Positions 1,248-7,976 of a stretch of 49,490 bases of DNA are shown in pieces. The stretch lies in assembly GCA_938074535.1 (NCBI GenBank), contig CALJER010000029.1, positions 1 to 49,490 on the forward strand, read 5' to 3'. Position numbers and translations under genes: made by a program. The DNA is from an uncultured archaeon. Its GTDB lineage: Archaea > Hadarchaeota > Hadarchaeia > Hadarchaeales > WYZ-LMO6. Numbering within the stretch: the first letter of the stretch is position 1; every line of letters begins with the position of its first letter. The notes under the pieces are model-generated. The model ran no database searches and was not told where the DNA came from. It saw only the letters and a program-made list of their open reading frames with translations.

Positions 1248-1879
1248 AGGAGGTCGCGCTGGAGATCGACGGGAGGGCCGTGAGGGCCAGGGAGGGGATG
1301 ACCGTGCTCCAGGCGGCCAGGGAGGCGGGGATAGAGATCCCCGCCCTGTGCCAGGGAGAGGGGCTGGAGCCCTACGGGGCCTGCAGGGTGTGCAGCGTGG
1401 AGATCGAGAAAGAGGGGAGGAGGAGAGTCGTGGCCTCCTGTTCCTATCCCGCCGAGGGCGGCCTGAGGGTGACCACCCAGAGTCCCGAGCTGCGTCTCCT
1501 CAGGAAGACCCTGCTCGAGCTGGCCTCCCTCAGGGGGCTGCCTGGGAAGGAGGGGAGCAGGTTCTGGAGGATGGTCCAGGAGCACGGCGCCGACCCCTCC
1601 AGGTTCTCGAAGAGGGTGGGGAAGAGGGAGGACCAGTGCATCCTGTGTGGTCTCTGCGTTCGTACCTGCTCCTCCGTCACCCAGGACGGGGTGCTGGCGT
1701 TCGTGGGCAGGGGGGTGAACCGCTCGGTGGCCGTTTTTCCCGACAGGACGGAGTACTGCAGGGTCTGCGGCTACTGCTCCAGGGCCTGCCCCACCGGGAA
1801 GATCCCACCCGAGGGTCCCGCGGGGGTGTTTCCCTCCGCCTACGAGGTGAAGCCGCACCTCTCAAAATCTTCCATATAG
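1244..1879 (+). CDS. Small NuoG/HydA N-terminal-like Fe-S protein ([2Fe-2S] + 2x[4Fe-4S]), no catalytic domain
   Basis: [38 protein letters not shown]; GTGA overlap with upstream gene, SD GGAGGTGA. Confidence 0.85.
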
Positions 1880-1930
1880 TCTCCCCGGAGATATCTTGAG
1901 GGCTGGAATATCACATTTTAGGTGAACAAG

Positions 1931-1940
1931 TCTTAAAAGA
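1931..1940 (+). promoter_or_regulatory. Putative TATA box (TTAAAA) for the downstream structured element
   Basis: TTAAAA at 1933-1938 in a GC-rich genome, ~25 nt before the 5' end of the closing helix at 1961. Confidence 0.55.
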
Positions 1941-1960
1941 GATGCGGTCAGATAGATGAT

Positions 1961-2193
1961 TGGCGGGGATGGAAGCCCGCGAGAGGGGCAGAACCGGAGC
2001 CTAAGGGCAACGGGGAGCCGCCGAAAAACCGGGGTAAAAACCCGGGAAGGCGGCGGATAGGCACCGGGGAGGTCGGTGCGATGCACCTATCGCGGGAAAA
2101 AGACCCGGGACGTGAAAAAAGGGCGGTGCCCTGGAAGTGGTCGAGGTTCAGGGTTCCGTCCAAAGAGTAGCGGACGGGTCGAAATCCCCGCCA
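1961..2193 (+). ncRNA. Putative large structured ncRNA or polB leader, family unassigned
   Basis: 10-bp terminal inverted repeat TGGCGGGGAT/ATCCCCGCCA, several nested helices with A-rich loops, upstream TATA, downstream T8 tract. Confidence 0.7.
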
Positions 2194-2194
2194 C

Positions 2195-2202
2195 TTTTTT
2201 TT
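2195..2202 (+). terminator. Oligo-T archaeal terminator
   Basis: T8 immediately after the closing helix. Confidence 0.55.
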
Positions 2203-2225
2203 GGTCCCAGGGAGACTCAGGAGTG

Positions 2226-4649
2226 ATGATCCTCGAAGGCCTTCTTCTGGACGTGGATCAGGCCGAGGAGGGATTCTCCTCTCTGGTCCTCTACCTCAAG
2301 CGCGGGGGGAGGGCGGAGGCGGTCCTGGATTCAAGTTTTGAGCCCTCCTTCTACTTCACCGCCGACGATCCCCGCAGGGCGGCGAGGCTGGTTTCCAAGG
2401 TGGAGGTGGAGGAGAGGGGGGAGACCGTCAGGCCGAAGAGGGTGGAAGTGGTGGGGAGGAAGCTGCTGGGGAGGGAGATGGAGGCGGTGAGGGTCTTCCT
2501 GGAGAGCCCCAGACATCTCACCCCCCTCAGGCACGCCATCCGCGAGCTCCCTGGGGTGAGGGAGTTTTACGGCTTCGATCTTCCCCTCGTCAGGCAGTAC
2601 CTGATCGAAAGGGGGCTGGTCCCTCTCGAAGGCGTGAGGGTGGAAGGGGAGAGGGAGGAGGGCGTGGTGAGGGCCTTCCATCCCCCTCAGCCTGGACCGG
2701 AGCATCCTCAGGAGCTGGAGGTGATGAGCTTCGACATCGAAGTCTACAACCCCGCGGGGGTCCCCAGATCGGACCGCGATCCCGTGATCATGATAAGCCT
2801 GGCGGCGCCCGGCGGCTTCAGAAAGGTCCTGACCTGGAAGGGGGTGGAGGGGGCACCCGAGTTCGTGGAGGTGGTGGGAAGCGAGAAGGAGATGCTGGAG
2901 AGGTTCGTGGAGCTCGTGAGGGAGAGGGAAGTGGACCTGCTCCTGGGGTACAACACCGACTTCTTCGACTTCCCCTACCTGAGGGAGAGGGCACGGAAGC
3001 TGGGAGTGGAGCTGGGGCTGGGGAGGGAGGGAGGGGGCGCCAGGACCCGCAGGAGGAAGTTCGCCACCGCCACCAAGGTCCCGGGGAGGGTGCACGTGGA
3101 CGTGTACGCCATGGTCAGCTTTCTGGCCGCCATAGGGGCCATCAGGCTCATCCACTACACCCTGGAGGATGTGTACAGGCACGTGCTCGGGAAGGAAAAG
3201 CCCGACTTCGAGATGGGGGGAATAGCCAGGGCTTGGGAGGAGGGAGGGGAGGAACTGAAGCACCTGCTGGAGTACTCCCTCTCCGACGCCCAGGCCACCC
3301 TGGAGCTGGGCCTGGCCTTCCTCCCCCTCTTTCGGGAGCTCACCAGGCTGGTGGGGCAGACCCTCTTCGACGTGACCAGGATGACCCCCGGACAGCTGGT
3401 GGAGTGGCTGCTCATAAGGGAGGCCTTCGGGCGCGGGGAGCTGGTCCCGCCCAGGCCCAAGGGGGAGGAGTACGGGGAGAGGATGGAGGAGACCTACGCG
3501 GGGGCCTACGTGATGGAGCCCAAGCGCGGACTGCACGAGAACCTGGTGGCCTTCGACTTCAGGTCCCTTTATCCAAGCATCATCGTCTCCCACAACATAG
3601 ACCCCTCCACCCTGAACTGCGACTGCTGCCGTCCCGAGGAGACCACGGTGGTCCCGGAGCTGGGTTACAGGTTCTGCGGGAAGAGGAAGGGGTTCGTCCC
3701 CTCCATCCTGGAGCGCCTGATAGAGAGGAGGGCGGAGCTGAAGAGGGAACTGAAAAGGCTGAAGCCGGGGACCCCCGAGTACCTGGAGCTGGACAGCCGC
3801 CAGATGGCGCTGAAGATCGTCTCCAATTCCTTCTACGGCATGTTCGGGTACGCCAGGGCCCGCTGGTACTCCAAAGAATGTGCGGAGAGCATCACCAGCC
3901 TGGGCAGGTACTACATCCACCAGACCATAGCGAGGGCGGAGAGGGAGGGAATGGAGGTGGTCTACGCCGACACCGACGGCCTGTACTGCAAGACGGGGGG
4001 GAAGAGCAGGGAGGAGATCCTCAGGTTCCTGGAGGAGGTGAACAGGGGGCTGCCGGGGGTGATGGAGCTGGAGCTGGAGGGCTTCTACCCGCGGGGGGTC
4101 TTCATCACCAAAAAGAGGTACGCCCTGAGGGACGAGGAGGGGAGGCTCATCGTGAAGGGGCTGGAGTTCGTGCGGAGGGACTGGGCGGCCGTGGCCAAGC
4201 GCACCCAGCAGGAGGTGCTGGACGCCGTTCTGGGTGAGGGCTCACCCAAGAAGGCCGCGGAGATCATAAGGAGGGTGGTGAGGGAGCTGCAGGAGGGAAA
4301 GGTGAGGGTGGAGGACCTGGTGATCTACACCCAGCTCAAGATGCCCATAGAGAGCTACAGGGCGATAGGGCCCCACGTGGTGGCGGCGAAGAAGCTCAGG
4401 AAGAAGGGCTACCCGGTGGAGCCGGGAACCATGATAGCCTACGTGGAGGTGAAGGGGCCTGGGAGCATAAGCGACAGGGCCACCCCCGTGGAGGACTTCG
4501 ACCCGGAGAGGATGGAGTACGATGCCGGCTACTACGTGGAACACCAGGTTCTCCCCGCCGTGATGAGGATCATGGAGGTGCTGGGGTACAGGGAGGAGGA
4601 CCTGCGCTCGCCGGGTGGGGAGCAGACCAGGTTGGGGAAGTTCTTCTAG
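2226..4649 (+). CDS. polB: Family B DNA polymerase (euryarchaeal PolB type), no intein
   Basis: ExoI FDIEVY, ExoII YNTDFFDFPYL, DFRSLYPSII, KIVSNSFYG, YADTDG, KKRYA, C-terminal PIP box QTRLGKFF; start moved to ATG 2226 (SD AGGAG). Confidence 0.95.
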   Translation: MILEGLLLDVDQAEEGFSSLVLYLKRGGRAEAVLDSSFEPSFYFTADDPRRAARLVSKVEVEERGETVRPKRVEVVGRKLLGREMEAVRVFLESPRHLTPLRHAIRELPGVREFYGFDLPLVRQYLIERGLVPLEGVRVEGEREEGVVRAFHPPQPGPEHPQELEVMSFDIEVYNPAGVPRSDRDPVIMISLAAPGGFRKVLTWKGVEGAPEFVEVVGSEKEMLERFVELVREREVDLLLGYNTDFFDFPYLRERARKLGVELGLGREGGGARTRRRKFATATKVPGRVHVDVYAMVSFLAAIGAIRLIHYTLEDVYRHVLGKEKPDFEMGGIARAWEEGGEELKHLLEYSLSDAQATLELGLAFLPLFRELTRLVGQTLFDVTRMTPGQLVEWLLIREAFGRGELVPPRPKGEEYGERMEETYAGAYVMEPKRGLHENLVAFDFRSLYPSIIVSHNIDPSTLNCDCCRPEETTVVPELGYRFCGKRKGFVPSILERLIERRAELKRELKRLKPGTPEYLELDSRQMALKIVSNSFYGMFGYARARWYSKECAESITSLGRYYIHQTIARAEREGMEVVYADTDGLYCKTGGKSREEILRFLEEVNRGLPGVMELELEGFYPRGVFITKKRYALRDEEGRLIVKGLEFVRRDWAAVAKRTQQEVLDAVLGEGSPKKAAEIIRRVVRELQEGKVRVEDLVIYTQLKMPIESYRAIGPHVVAAKKLRKKGYPVEPGTMIAYVEVKGPGSISDRATPVEDFDPERMEYDAGYYVEHQVLPAVMRIMEVLGYREEDLRSPGGEQTRLGKFF

Positions 4650-5843: not shown

Positions 5844-5995
5844 GTGAATCCCTTCTCCCCTTCCCTATTTAAACCATCGCAGGAGCTGCCGAAAATTCGG
5901 GGAGGTGGTGCGGGAGAGTTGGGGTTCGGAGCCCCTCGGTACTGTGCGGTGAAGTTCTATAGAAAATTTTTTAAAGAGCAGGGAGGATAGAAAAC

Positions 5996-7195
5996 GTGCC
6001 TTTGGACTTCGAACTCACGGAGGAGCAGAAGCTCATCCAGCAGACGGCCAGGGAGTTCGCCCTGAAGGAGATCCAGCCCAGGGCGAAGGAGTTCGAGCAA
6101 AAGCACGAGTTTCCCTGGGAGATTTACAGGAAGTGCGGCCAGCAGGGCTTTCTGGGGATGACCTGGCCCCAGGAGTACGGAGGTCAGGGTGTTTCCTTCC
6201 TGGACGCCATGCTGGTGACCTACGAGCTCGTGAAGGCGGATCCGCCCGTGAGTACTGCCGTGCTGGCAGGGATCTTCGGGGCGGACATGATTGCCGAGTC
6301 GGGGACCCACGAGCAGAAGGCCAAGTGGCTCCCCAGGCTGGCAAAGGGTGAGATCACCTCCGCCGGATGCTTTACGGAGCCGGGGGGAGGGAGCGACATC
6401 GCCCGCGTGCTGGACACCAGGGCGGAGAGGAAGGGCAACGAGTGGGTGATCAACGGCACCAAGCAGTTCATCACCAACGGGACCACCGCCTCGGTGTTCG
6501 TGACCCTCGTTCAGACGGACACCAAGGTGGACCGGCCCTACAGGGGGCAGACCGAGTTCGTGATAGAGAGGTCCGATGCCATCGAGGCCAGGAAGTATGA
6601 GGACAAGATGGGCTGGCTGGCCTCCCCCACCTGCGAGGTCAGGTTCAACGACGTGAGGGTCACGGACAACGACATCCTGGGAGGACCGTCCAACCTGAAC
6701 AGGGGCTTCTACCTGGGCCTCATGTTCCTGGATGTGACCAGGGCGGCCGTGGGCTGGCAGGCCCTGGCCACGGCGGAGGCGGCCCTGGAGAGGGCTCTCT
6801 CCTACGCCGGGGAGAGGGAGGCCTTCGGGCGGAAGATAGGGGGCTTCCAGGCCCTGGCCTTCAGGCTGGTGGAGATGGCCACGCAGGTGGAGATGCTGAA
6901 GGCCCACTGCTTCCGCACCGCCTGGCTGGTGGAGAAGGCCAGGGAGAACCCGGCGGTTTACGGGGAGGAATCGGTGAAGATGGCCTCCATGGCGAAGTGG
7001 TTCGGGGCCAGGACGGCGGTCCAGGCCTGCGATCTGGCCATGGACGTGATGGCGGGATACGGGTACGTGGAGAGCGACATCGACAGGTGGTACAGGTTCG
7101 CGAAGTGCCTGGAGCTCATCGAGGGGACGAAGGAGGTCCAGAAGAACGCCATCGCCAGGCTGATGCTGGGAAGGGACATCACAAAAACCTTCTGA
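5996..7195 (+). CDS. Acyl-CoA dehydrogenase
   Basis: FTEPGGGSD, INGTKQFITNG, REAFGRKI, IEGTKEVQK; TTTAAA ~5970 and SD GGAGG. Confidence 0.93.
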   Translation: MPLDFELTEEQKLIQQTAREFALKEIQPRAKEFEQKHEFPWEIYRKCGQQGFLGMTWPQEYGGQGVSFLDAMLVTYELVKADPPVSTAVLAGIFGADMIAESGTHEQKAKWLPRLAKGEITSAGCFTEPGGGSDIARVLDTRAERKGNEWVINGTKQFITNGTTASVFVTLVQTDTKVDRPYRGQTEFVIERSDAIEARKYEDKMGWLASPTCEVRFNDVRVTDNDILGGPSNLNRGFYLGLMFLDVTRAAVGWQALATAEAALERALSYAGEREAFGRKIGGFQALAFRLVEMATQVEMLKAHCFRTAWLVEKARENPAVYGEESVKMASMAKWFGARTAVQACDLAMDVMAGYGYVESDIDRWYRFAKCLELIEGTKEVQKNAIARLMLGRDITKTF

Positions 7196-7238
7196 TTCCC
7201 CCGCAACCTTTTTCCTTTCCCCCCGCGCTCTTTTCCTG

Positions 7239-7976
7239 TTGAGGCTGGTGGACACCCACTCCCACCTGAACGAGATCCCCGACCTGGCGCGGGAGCTGGA
7301 GGAGGCAAGGGAGGCGGGAGTGGTCGCCGTGGTCGCCGTGGGCATGGACAGGGAGTCCAGCCTGGAGACCTTGAGGCTGGGAAGAGAGCACCCCGGGTTC
7401 GTCCTCCCGGCCGTGGGCCTGCACCCCTGGTCCCTTTCCCCTGAGCCCGAGGCCGACCTGGAGTTCCTGAGGGAGCACGCTGAGGTGGCCGTGGCACTGG
7501 GGGAGGTGGGGATGGATTTGAAGATCCCCAAACCCCTCGAGCTGCAGCGCGAGGTGCTGGGGGAGGTGGTGAGGGTGGCCGAGGAGCACGGGAAGCCCCT
7601 CCTCCTTCACACCAGGTGGGCCTGGAGGGAGGTCCTGGAGGAGGTGAGGGGGAGGGATCTCCCCCCCTCCGTCTTCCACTGGTACTCAGGACCGGAGGGG
7701 CTGGTGGGGGAAATCCTGGACCTGGGGCACTACCTCTCCGCCACCCCGGCCCTGGAGTACAGTCCCCCCCACCGCTCGGCCCTGAGGGTGTGCCCCGTGG
7801 AGCGGATCCTCCTGGAAACGGATGCTCCCGTGAGGTACAGGGGGAGGGAGGCCAGGCCGAGGGACGTGGTGGGGAGCCTGAGGGCCCTCTCGGAGCTCAA
7901 GGGGATGGAGCCGGAGGAGGTGGCCGTCCTCACCACCGGGAACGCCGAGAGGGTTTTCGGGACCAGGTTCCTCTGA
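7239..7976 (+). CDS. tatD: TatD-family metal-dependent nuclease
   Basis: DTHSH, GLHP, GEVGMD, FHWYSG, LLETDAP. Confidence 0.9.
   Translation: MRLVDTHSHLNEIPDLARELEEAREAGVVAVVAVGMDRESSLETLRLGREHPGFVLPAVGLHPWSLSPEPEADLEFLREHAEVAVALGEVGMDLKIPKPLELQREVLGEVVRVAEEHGKPLLLHTRWAWREVLEEVRGRDLPPSVFHWYSGPEGLVGEILDLGHYLSATPALEYSPPHRSALRVCPVERILLETDAPVRYRGREARPRDVVGSLRALSELKGMEPEEVAVLTTGNAERVFGTRFL

What the first reader, a model, noticed from the sequence alone, without database searches (positions are those of the whole stretch)
1933..2202. Unassigned ~233-nt highly structured RNA with its own TATA and T8 terminator, just upstream of polB
Seen helices: 1961-1970/2184-2193 (10 bp, closes the whole element); 2017-2022/2049-2054 enclosing 2029-2033/2041-2045; 2056-2061/2086-2091 enclosing 2062-2066/2074-2078; 2102-2107/2175-2180 enclosing 2108-2112/2157-2161 and 2129-2135/2147-2153. 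Junctions are A-rich, TTAAAA sits ~25 nt upstream and T8 follows directly. It lacks SRP helix 8, the RNase P P4 signature and a tRNA cloverleaf. Inference: a novel archaeal ncRNA, or a structured attenuator controlling polB (ATG 24 nt after the T-tract, no separate TATA evident).
Basis: partly seen in the sequence, partly recalled or inferred. Interest (0 to 1): 0.78.

Follow-up and report, generated by a model that had tools for sequence, protein, structure and literature searches.

The report
New structured RNA family in Hadesarchaea
The element is a real, separately transcribed, roughly 235-base folded RNA gene from a previously undescribed RNA family that is conserved across the archaeal phylum Hadarchaeota; its job is still unknown.

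Summary
Window 1962-2192 (+) is a P1-closed, ten-helix RNA with a BRE/TATA promoter (1932-1939) and a T8 tract (2195-2202). Its fold is far more stable than shuffles (z = -7.3).

A covariance model finds it in 51 of 66 Hadarchaeota species genomes. It finds none in 80 archaeal genomes of other phyla. On 75 distinct sequences, 96.7% of cells pair against 80.2% when shuffled, and 52 of 61 pairs show double changes.

Rfam 15 has no match for this copy or its paralogues. The genome's RNase P and SRP RNAs lie on other contigs.

The family has paralogue classes, with 1-6 matches per genome. The window's copy belongs to a clade kept just upstream of polB. A sister clade sits before a convergent gene, so polB attenuation cannot be the family's function. 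The T8 tract lies where a TATA box for leaderless polB would sit.

Best reading, by inference: a stable trans-acting RNA, probably a ribonucleoprotein scaffold. Expression could not be tested.

The parts
1887..1915 (+). Upstream dyad-like elements (GGAGATATCT at 1887-1896, GGAATATCACA at 1905-1915). In other families the element reads GGAAATATCTCC, about 50 nt before P1. Candidate gene-specific regulator site.
   Evidence: Upstream flanks aligned. A loose regex finds the element in 54 of 91 distinct class-1 genes. Eight of its other exact genomic occurrences in five genomes were fetched and all lie inside ORFs. It is not seen before the G000 tRNA genes.
1924..1939 (+). BRE/TATA promoter (gaacaagtCTTAAAAG). 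The TATA octamer 1932-1939 ends 22 nt before G1962.
   Evidence: A TATA-like box at -36..-18 occurs in 87 of 91 distinct class-1 genes. The spacing is the same in all aligned flanks. The start site at about 1960-1962 is inferred from archaeal TATA-to-start spacing, not measured.
1962..1970 (+). P1, 5' strand (GGCGGGGAU). It pairs with 2184-2192. U1961/A2193 adds a tenth pair in this genome.
   Evidence: (helix 1: 98.2% of cells paired, 7 of 8 pairs with double changes across classes).
1976..2096 (+). Domain I. H2 (1976-1982/2090-2096, 1985/2087, 1988-1990/2082-2084) closes a four-way junction. The junction carries H3 (1994-1996/2011-2013, 1999-2001/2006-2008), H4 (2018-2023/2051-2056) with H5 (2029-2033/2041-2045), and H6 (2061-2066/2074-2079).
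   Evidence: RNAalifold consensus, pair counts, mutual-information top pairs, coordinates. This domain is conserved in all paralogue classes.
2102..2180 (+). Domain II. It comprises H7 (2102-2106/2176-2180), H8 (2111-2113/2170-2172), H9 (2121-2126/2156-2161) and H10 (2129-2135/2147-2153 in this genome). GAA 2114-2116 faces AGUA 2166-2169, which resembles a loop-E/S-turn motif. The apical loop holds the invariant GUGGUCGAG (2137-2145).
   Evidence: (invariant columns). The S-turn reading is my recollection of the AGUA/GAA motif, not a tool result. H9/H10 and the loop are the part that differs between paralogue classes.
2184..2192 (+). P1, 3' strand (AUCCCCGCC), followed by the conserved A2193.
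2195..2202 (+). T8 tract. Probable terminator of the RNA gene and, by position, probable TATA-like box of polB. It ends 20 nt before GTG 2223 and 23 nt before ATG 2226.
   Evidence: A run of at least four T right after P1 occurs in 84 of 91 distinct class-1 genes. Spacing to the polB start in the polB-linked clade is shown. Both functions are inferred.
2223..4649 (+). polB, a family B DNA polymerase and the only copy found in this genome. It is a neighbour of the RNA gene, not part of it.
   Evidence: Pfam DNA_pol_B 1.5e-69 and DNA_pol_B_exo1 3.4e-26. tblastn gives a single hit in G000.

Best explanation
Window 1962 to about 2202 (+) is a stand-alone non-coding RNA gene of a previously undescribed family confined, as far as searched, to the phylum Hadarchaeota.

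Shown:
- It is a conserved, covarying ten-helix fold. P1 joins the two ends. Domain I is a four-way junction and domain II is a stacked arm with an invariant apical loop.
- Almost every copy has a BRE/TATA box at fixed distance before P1 and a T-tract right after P1.
- There are 1-6 paralogous matches per genome, in at least three classes.
- The copies sit in stable but differing gene neighbourhoods.

Inferred:
- The archaeal RNA polymerase starts at or next to the first G of P1 and stops in the T-tract. That would give a 233-241 nt primary transcript needing no processing.
- The RNA acts in trans as a stable, compactly folded molecule, most likely the scaffold or core of a ribonucleoprotein.
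- The conserved domain I core, the AGUA/GAA internal loop and the invariant GUGGUCGAG loop would be the docking surfaces. The class-specific distal arm would be a specificity module.
- In this genome the T8 tract lies exactly where the TATA box of a leaderless polB mRNA would be. The RNA gene's terminator and the polB promoter probably overlap. This may explain why the pair has stayed together.
For: Stability: -126.1 kcal/mol, z = -7.3.

Homologues:
- BLASTN finds full-length matches of 70-98% identity in relatives.
- Model R1 hits 51 of 66 phylum genomes: f1 5/5 besides G000, f2 40/46, f3 1/1, f5 3/3, f4 1/9, f6 0/1.
- All 68 metagenome loci from a pattern scan are true hits.

Covariation:
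- 34 of 61 pairs are compensatory in 30 sequences.
- On 75 distinct sequences, 96.7% of cells pair against 80.2% shuffled and 32-44% with slid partners. 52 of 61 pairs show double changes.
- The top mutual-information pairs are all the nested helices.
- Frequent G-U pairs fit only the + strand.

Own transcription unit: TATA-like box in 87 of 91 and a run of four or more T in 84 of 91 distinct class-1 genes.

Not a general leader: about 40 of 96 distinct class-1 sequences lie between a divergent DRG-like GTPase gene and a convergent FAD-reductase gene. Tandem copies each have their own TATA and T-tract.

Not a known RNA:
- Rfam 15 gives nothing at gathering score or at E <= 10 beyond noise, for any class.
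- RNase P RNA (178.7 bits) and SRP RNA (149.2 bits) are on other contigs.
- ARAGORN finds no tRNA or tmRNA.

Complexity: mean column identity is 82%, with many invariant unpaired bases, while the neighbouring polB is only 52-65% identical in other families. That pattern fits a tertiary-folded or protein-bound RNA, not a seed-pairing sRNA.
Against: - No expression data exist. No RNA run holding the stretch was found, so the transcript, its ends and its abundance are all inferred.
- No partner protein was identified. No conserved RNA-binding gene lies next to any class.
- Some lineages lack the family: g5 0 of 7 genomes, g7 1 of 4. It is therefore not essential for the phylum.
- The window's clade keeps a tight, co-oriented link to polB: 24 of 96 distinct sequences, 19-124 nt apart in most. 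A cis role would also explain that.
- Class 3 copies often lack a clear T-tract and might behave differently.
- The alignments used for pair counts were fitted to the model's structure, which favours that structure.
Confidence: 0.6

Rival explanations
1. Cis-acting leader or attenuator of polB. The RNA is the 5' part of a polB transcript, and its fold decides whether the polymerase stops at T8 or reads on into polB.
For: - The window's clade is co-oriented with polB and directly upstream of it in families f1, f5 and parts of f2. 24 of 96 distinct class-1 sequences show this, mostly 19-124 nt apart.
- Even in genus g7, where the RNA's interior has changed beyond recognition, an RNA-like element with the same terminal helix still sits before polB.
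- polB has no separate classical TATA box apart from the T-tract.
Against: - The sister clade has the same core and the same invariant loop, yet it is followed by a convergent gene (about 40 of 96 sequences).
- In genus g9 a convergent HAD gene separates the RNA from polB by about 1 kb.
- The T-tract, often followed by AT, ends 20-23 nt before the polB start codon. This is the same geometry as the RNA's own TATA-to-start spacing, so polB can start on its own.
- polB exists without the RNA in g5.
Confidence: 0.12
2. Ligand- or ion-sensing RNA, with a riboswitch-like aptamer used in trans or to tune termination.
For: - The multi-junction fold has near-invariant junction nucleotides, as in large aptamers.
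- Class 3 copies lie in a conserved block with MoeA, tungsten-type aldehyde ferredoxin oxidoreductase, a cation-efflux gene and glutamine synthetase.
Against: - Genes downstream of class 3 on the same strand are inconsistent: CDF, a Zn-phospholipase-C-like protein, a glycosidase-like protein, or none.
- Class 1 has no coherent downstream gene set.
- No alternative pairing or expression platform was seen, and mutual information shows only one fold.
- No Rfam riboswitch model matches.
Confidence: 0.1
3. Ribozyme: a catalytic RNA of a new class.
For: Its size, complex fold and very high conservation of unpaired positions resemble those of large ribozymes.
Against: - No conserved cleavage-site-like feature, repeat association or substrate is evident.
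- No pseudoknot or long-range tertiary pair was detected.
- Some lineages lose it.
Confidence: 0.08
4. RNA of a mobile element or defence system (retron ncRNA, omega/bridge RNA, prophage RNA).
For: Several copies per genome, sometimes in tandem. The terminal inverted repeat resembles the a1/a2 stem of retron RNAs (recalled).
Against: - Copies sit at orthologous positions across genera, and the tree follows context rather than genome.
- No reverse transcriptase, TnpB/IscB or recombinase gene lies next to any copy annotated.
- The two viral-contig pattern matches fail the model.
- Both ends are paired, so no free guide segment exists.
Confidence: 0.03

Closest known systems
Orphan large structured ncRNAs of bacteria (OLE, ROOL, GOLLD, raiA; recalled from the literature, all curated in Rfam)
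   Same: Stand-alone genes with a complex multi-helix fold and strong covariation. Unpaired positions are highly conserved. The lineage range is restricted, and function is not deducible from neighbours.
   Different: This family is archaeal and shorter (about 235 nt). No sequence or structure match to any of these models was found. It also has several paralogue classes per genome.
Archaeal SRP (7S) RNA and RNase P RNA
   Same: Stable transcripts of a few hundred nucleotides whose 5' and 3' ends pair in a G+C-rich terminal helix. A TATA promoter precedes the gene, and a T-rich tail follows RNase P RNA (no T-tract was seen after the SRP RNA in G000). They act as RNP cores. These are the model for the mechanism proposed here.
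   Different: Both are present elsewhere in this genome with strong scores. The element matches neither model at E <= 10. No P4 pseudoknot or helix 8 motif was found. Unlike them, it is absent from some Hadarchaeota and from 80 genomes of other phyla.
Y RNAs and vault RNAs of eukaryotes and some bacteria (recalled)
   Same: Small families of paralogous RNAs, sometimes in tandem, each with its own promoter and U-tail. The terminal stem formed by the two ends is conserved and an inner module varies.
   Different: No Ro60/TROVE gene is in this genome, and the control genomes ring. This RNA is much larger, and its interior is more conserved than that of a Y RNA.
Riboswitch leaders, such as the Moco/Tuco and cobalamin classes
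   Same: Multi-junction aptamer-like architecture closed by P1 with a T-tract behind it. Some paralogues lie near molybdopterin and tungsten-enzyme genes.
   Different: It has its own promoter. Many copies have a convergent or unrelated downstream gene. No expression platform is seen, and there is no Rfam match.

Membership tests
RNase P RNA (archaeal type A, RF00373; type T, RF02357) | Match to the covariance model (P1-P4 core with the P4 pseudoknot and CR-I to CR-V) | tested here: not met
   No hit on window 1850-2280 at E <= 10. The genome's RNase P RNA is at C3:39174-39465, 178.7 bits. RF02357 gives only noise in the genome, best 13.4 bits, and none at the element.
SRP (7S) RNA, RF01857 | Match to the covariance model (helices 5, 6 and 8 with the conserved helix 8 loops) | tested here: not met
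   No hit at the element. The genome's SRP RNA is at C5:38551-38859, 149.2 bits.
tRNA / tmRNA | Cloverleaf with anticodon, or a tRNA-like domain plus a tag reading frame | tested here: not met
   ARAGORN finds 0 genes in the whole window. Rfam tRNA hits occur only elsewhere in related loci.
Any curated Rfam 15 family (4227 models) | Score at or above the family's gathering threshold | tested here: not met
   0 matches in the window and in 20 loci holding all paralogue classes. E <= 10 searches return only unrelated noise: STnc400, mir-425, JPX_1, RUF6-5, snoZ6.
Riboswitch / cis-regulatory 5' leader | Most representatives lie in the 5' UTR of a co-oriented gene | tested here: not met
   Of 96 distinct class-1 sequences, 24 have polB downstream on the same strand, about 40 have a convergent gene downstream and 23 have no recognised neighbour.
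Riboswitch / cis-regulatory 5' leader | Downstream genes form a coherent functional set | tested here: not met
   polB for one clade. For class 3 the downstream gene is CDF, a phospholipase-C-like protein, a glycosidase-like protein or none.
Riboswitch / cis-regulatory 5' leader | Ligand binding that changes expression | not testable with these tools
   Needs in-line probing or reporter assays.
Y RNA / Ro RNP | A Ro60 (TROVE domain) protein encoded in the same genome | tested here: not met
   PF05731 gives 0 matches in G000 (93.6% complete). The control rings in Deinococcus radiodurans and Bacteroides thetaiotaomicron.
Retron or omega/bridge RNA of mobile elements | An adjacent reverse transcriptase, TnpB/IscB or recombinase gene, with copies at variable insertion sites | tested here: not met
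   Neighbours are NuoF-like, ferredoxin-like, polB, DRG GTPase, FAD reductase, AFOR, MoeA, GS, GDH and CDF. Positions are orthologous across genera.
Stand-alone stable ncRNA gene (the class this is filed under) | Own promoter and own terminator, independent of the orientation of neighbours | tested here: met
   TATA-like box in 87 of 91 and a run of four or more T in 84 of 91 distinct class-1 genes. Spacing to P1 is fixed. Neighbours are divergent or convergent in many loci. These are sequence signals only.
Stand-alone stable ncRNA gene (the class this is filed under) | A discrete transcript of the predicted size | not testable with these tools
   No RNA run holding the stretch was listed. The two runs laid are contigs and probably DNA.
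Stand-alone stable ncRNA gene (the class this is filed under) | Secondary structure conserved through compensatory change | tested here: met

The most novel reading that the evidence does not exclude
This is a new class of complex-folded archaeal RNA: the core of an unknown Hadarchaeota-specific ribonucleoprotein or ribozyme, with interchangeable distal arms in its paralogues. Its polB-linked member is functionally tied to the replicative polymerase gene. Because the RNA gene's terminator is also the TATA box of leaderless polB, transcription of the RNA would directly set polB initiation.
Probability: 0.15. Interest if true: 0.85.

Novelty: categorically new. Interest (0 to 1): 0.72.

Why it matters
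Beyond rRNA, tRNA, RNase P RNA, SRP RNA and guide sRNAs, archaea have very few known large, phylum-wide structured RNAs. This family shows 82% mean column identity among the 30 aligned class-1 copies. It has ten covarying helices and up to six matches per genome, in a group of uncultivated subsurface and hot-spring archaea with genomes of about 1 Mb.

Conservation that strong in streamlined genomes implies a real cellular role. The size and complexity are those of RNAs that usually turn out to be RNP cores, ribozymes or elaborate sensors.

The family offers three things:
- a well-defined target for structural work (cryo-EM, probing) and for pull-downs
- a marker gene for Hadarchaeota in metagenomes
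- a possible natural example of a terminator that doubles as the promoter of an essential replication gene

The two covariance-model alignments made here (A1/A3 for the whole RNA, A5 for domain I) would be enough to seed an Rfam family.

Tried and rejected
- **Expression.** The look-up of sequencing runs listed no RNA holder. It returned two hot-spring runs labelled metatranscriptomic but flagged as probably DNA, each holding 8% of the words. Laid as contigs, they show relatives of the element and of polB. Supplements are closed and could hold cluster lists that include this RNA.\n- **Antisense target of the invariant loop.** The complement CTCGACCAC occurs 15 times in G000 against about 15 expected, and one of the 15 is the element's own opposite strand. 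Rejected.\n- **Pseudoknots and tertiary pairs.** Mutual information with APC on 96 distinct sequences gives only nested pairs plus a few junction-extending pairs.\n- **Upstream palindrome as a regulon signal.** Eight of the other exact occurrences in five genomes were fetched and all lie inside ORFs. It is absent before the G000 tRNA genes.\n- **Second copy in G000.** R1 and R2 find one copy only. A regex for P1-like termini with TATA and T-tail returns only the element.\n- **Viruses.** Two viral-contig pattern matches and one Archangiaceae match fail the model.\n- **Y RNA idea.** No TROVE gene.\n- **Candidate partner 'unk228'.** This gene lies next to class 3, but it is a membrane-anchored protein without a Pfam family. 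It is also present in G000, which has no class 3 RNA. A domain-I model replaced it.\n- It used too strict an E-value to say anything about distant homologues. It was redone.

Full report
**What is there**

Window 1961-2193 (+) reads GGCGGGGAU...AUCCCCGCC. TTAAAA lies at 1933-1938 and a T8 tract at 2195-2202. The start of polB is at GTG 2223 or ATG 2226 (polB by Pfam). Upstream lie a NuoF-like gene (15-1247) and a 2Fe-2S/4Fe-4S ferredoxin-like gene (1244-1879).

The + strand folds to -126.1 kcal/mol, against -92.5 +/- 4.6 for 200 dinucleotide-preserving shuffles (z = -7.3, none as good). The complement also folds well (z = -5.7), as expected for the reverse complement of a structured RNA.

**It is none of the usual RNAs**

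- Rfam 15 (4227 models) gives nothing in the window at gathering thresholds.
- At E <= 10 on 1850-2280 it gives only two noise hits.
- ARAGORN finds no tRNA or tmRNA in the window.
- The window's genome is 1.2 Mb in 53 contigs and 93.6% complete. Its RNase P RNA is on contig 3 (178.7 bits) and its SRP RNA on contig 5 (149.2 bits).
- The minimal type-T RNase P model gives only noise.

**Homologues and structure**

BLASTN against 60 relatives finds full-length matches of 70-98% identity. An alignment of 30 of them has 82% mean column identity. Many invariant positions lie outside helices.

RNAalifold predicts 61 pairs, and 34 of them have compensatory double changes.

I built covariance model R1 from this alignment. 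It finds the RNA in 51 of 66 species genomes of the phylum:
- f1: 5/5 besides the window's genome
- f2: 40/46
- f3: 1/1
- f5: 3/3
- f4: 1/9
- f6: 0/1
- Among genomes at least 90% complete: 20 of 26

On 108 matches (75 distinct sequences), 96.7% of cells are standard pairs. The figure is 80.2% when partners are shuffled (0 of 500 shuffles reach it) and 32-44% when partners are slid by 1-3 columns. 52 of 61 pairs show changes on both sides. That alignment is fitted to the model and so leans towards its structure. The independent MAFFT alignment already showed the same helices.

Mutual information with APC on 96 distinct full-length sequences ranks the nested helices first. It reveals no pseudoknot. 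Frequent G-U pairs would be A-C mismatches on the other strand, so the + strand is the RNA.

**The conserved fold in window coordinates**

| Helix | Coordinates |
|---|---|
| P1 | 1962-1970 / 2184-2192 |
| H2 | 1976-1982 / 2090-2096, 1985 / 2087, 1988-1990 / 2082-2084 |
| H3 | 1994-1996 / 2011-2013, 1999-2001 / 2006-2008 |
| H4 | 2018-2023 / 2051-2056 |
| H5 | 2029-2033 / 2041-2045 |
| H6 | 2061-2066 / 2074-2079 |
| H7 | 2102-2106 / 2176-2180 |
| H8 | 2111-2113 / 2170-2172 |
| H9 | 2121-2126 / 2156-2161 |
| H10 | 2129-2135 / 2147-2153 (around the invariant loop GUGGUCGAG, 2137-2145) |

H2 closes the four-way junction of domain I.

- Five helices agree.
- One is 1-2 nt out of register.
- Two (2056-2061/2086-2091 and 2108-2112/2157-2161) are lineage-specific alternatives that clash with H2 and H9.
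- H2 and H3 were missed.

GAA 2114-2116 faces AGUA 2166-2169 next to H8. From memory, this is the signature of a loop-E/S-turn motif. That is a recalled resemblance, not a test.

**Taxon and range**

A pattern built from invariant positions recalls 39 of 40 class-1 sequences locally. It was scanned over one genome per prokaryotic species and gave 52 stretches:
- 47 carry Hadesarchaea or Hadarchaeota-type names.
- 2 are labelled 'Hodarchaeaceae', 1 'Methanobacteriota archaeon' and 1 'uncultured archaeon'.
- 1 is an Archangiaceae bacterium. This one fails the model and is a chance match.

The same pattern finds 69 metagenome stretches. All 68 that I searched are true model hits. Two viral-contig matches are not.

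Outside the phylum:
- R1 finds nothing at E <= 0.01 in 80 archaeal genomes of 51 other families.
- A second model, R2, was built from domain I of all paralogue classes. It finds nothing at E <= 0.05 in 79 such genomes, while the positive control rings twice.

These are samples searched with strict filters, so the correct statement is 'not found in those searched'.

**A family with paralogues**

37 of the 51 positive genomes have 2-6 matches, and all 37 are in family f2. The matches fall into score classes:

- Class 1: 218-275 bits, full length, with the invariant loop.
- Class 2: about 126-164 bits. In genus g9 it usually lies in tandem about 70 nt upstream of a class-1 copy.
- Class 3: about 85-115 bits.

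All classes share P1, domain I and H7/H8. They differ in the distal arm H9/H10. None matches Rfam.

A near-complete genome in 3 contigs has exactly three copies: two class 1 and one class 3. The window's genome has one copy only.

**Its own transcription unit**

Flanks aligned on P1 show a BRE/TATA box (aaaaatcCTTAAATAg in f2, gaacaagtCTTAAAAG here). The octamer ends 22 nt before the first P1 base, and a T-tract follows directly after P1.

Of 91 distinct class-1 genes with flanks, 87 have a TATA-like box at -36..-18 and 84 have a run of at least four T after P1. With the usual archaeal TATA-to-start spacing (established knowledge), transcription should begin at or next to G1962 and end in T8. 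The primary transcript would then be the P1-closed molecule itself. This is inferred, not measured.

About 50 nt upstream, class-1 genes carry a dyad (GGAAATATCTCC; GGAATATCACA here). Eight of its other exact occurrences in five genomes were fetched and all are intragenic. tRNA genes lack it. It looks like a gene-specific site.

**Gene neighbourhoods**

Contexts of the 96 distinct class-1 sequences:

| Context | Count |
|---|---|
| polB downstream on the same strand | 24 |
| Between a divergent DRG-like GTPase gene and a convergent FAD-dependent (geranylgeranyl-reductase-like) gene | about 40 |
| No recognised neighbour (often short contigs) | 23 |
| Other contexts | 9 |

A midpoint-rooted tree splits class 1 into a polB-linked clade and a DRG/GGR-linked clade. 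The polB-linked clade contains f1, f5, one of the two f2 copies and the window's copy. This points to an old duplication. The root is only a midpoint root.

Class 3 sits in a block with MoeA, an unknown membrane protein, a cation-efflux gene, glutamine synthetase or dehydrogenase, and tungsten-type aldehyde ferredoxin oxidoreductase. The genes that follow it on the same strand are inconsistent.

**polB**

In the polB-linked clade the polB start codon follows the T-tract by 19-50 nt in f1 and f5, by up to 124 nt in several f2 genomes and by 288 nt in one. In genus g9 a convergent HAD gene intervenes and the gap is about 1 kb.

In f1 the T-tract, often continued by AT, ends 20-23 nt before the start codon. 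This is the same geometry as the RNA's own TATA-to-start distance. The simplest reading is that the T-tract serves twice: as terminator for the RNA and as TATA-like box for a leaderless polB mRNA. This is inference.

In genus g7, three genomes carry a different 170-230 nt structured element with the same terminal helix before polB. R1 scores it 23.6 bits in one of them, 12-14 bits on the terminal helix alone in a second, and nothing above noise in the third. In g5 nothing comparable precedes polB.

**Interpretation**

The second alternative, a polB attenuator, cannot be the family's function. The sister clade keeps the same core without any co-oriented downstream gene, and polB probably has its own start. 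I keep it at about 0.12 for the window's clade, because the linkage is old and tight.

The RNA has a complex single fold. Its junctions and loops are invariant, while neighbouring proteins have diverged to 52-65% identity. It has paralogues with a swapped distal arm, a strong promoter and a U-tail.

On that basis the mechanism I commit to is a stable trans-acting RNA that serves as scaffold or core of a ribonucleoprotein (about 0.6 including the gene-level claims). A ligand sensor (0.10), a ribozyme (0.08) and a mobile or defence RNA (0.03) are the rivals. No partner, ligand or activity was identified.

**Limits**

- No expression evidence could be obtained.
- Paper supplements were closed.
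- Literature searches cover only the held library.
- Absence outside the phylum rests on 80 sampled genomes.

Noticed in passing
L213:1262-1466 (+); L212, about 230 nt before polB; L214:1313-1478: In genus g7 the position just upstream of polB holds a different structured element of 170-230 nt. It has the same terminal helix (GGCGGGG...CCCCGCC), its own TATA-like box and no Rfam match. The G018 and G029 versions resemble each other. It may be a fourth, strongly diverged class of the family or a replacement.
   Followed up: partly
L212 and L214, about 100-200 nt upstream of the g7 element: A conserved hairpin-like element of about 70 nt (GGGGYG..CCAAGCUGGCUGGGAC..GGUGUUGG..CAACGCU..GGAUGA.CAGCU..ACCAG..CCCC) is present in two g7 genomes. 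It has no Rfam hit at E <= 0.1. It was seen only by eye.
   Followed up: no
window 1887-1915, and about 50 nt upstream of class-1 genes in other loci: The dyad GGAAATATCTCC (GGAGATATCT and GGAATATCACA in the window), often followed by a second small dyad TTTCGAAA before the BRE, appears specific to class-1 RNA genes. It is a candidate operator for an unknown regulator.
   Followed up: partly
L230:789-2372 (-): A eukaryotic-type DNA topoisomerase IB gene (Pfam Topoisom_I, Topoisom_I_N, Topo_C_assoc) lies divergently next to a lower-scoring (119 bits) family member in one f2 genome.
   Followed up: no
L067:4413-4518 (+): A tRNA gene of 106 nt (probably intron-containing; 47.2 bits) lies 165 nt downstream of a class-1 RNA gene on the same strand.
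   Followed up: no
G000 contig C3, minus strand, start 21713 (186 nt): This is another stretch whose ends pair (GTGGGGG...CCCCAC), with a TATA-like box at promoter distance. A crude regex found it. It was not folded or compared.
   Followed up: no
window 5957-7531 (-): An ORF of 524 aa with no Pfam family at E <= 0.001.
   Followed up: no
L060:4326-5012 (+) and homologues; G000 C42:5486-6082: A conserved 228-aa protein with an N-terminal hydrophobic segment and no Pfam family travels with MoeA, CDF, glutamine synthetase and the class 3 RNA. It is also present in the window's genome, which lacks class 3.
   Followed up: partly
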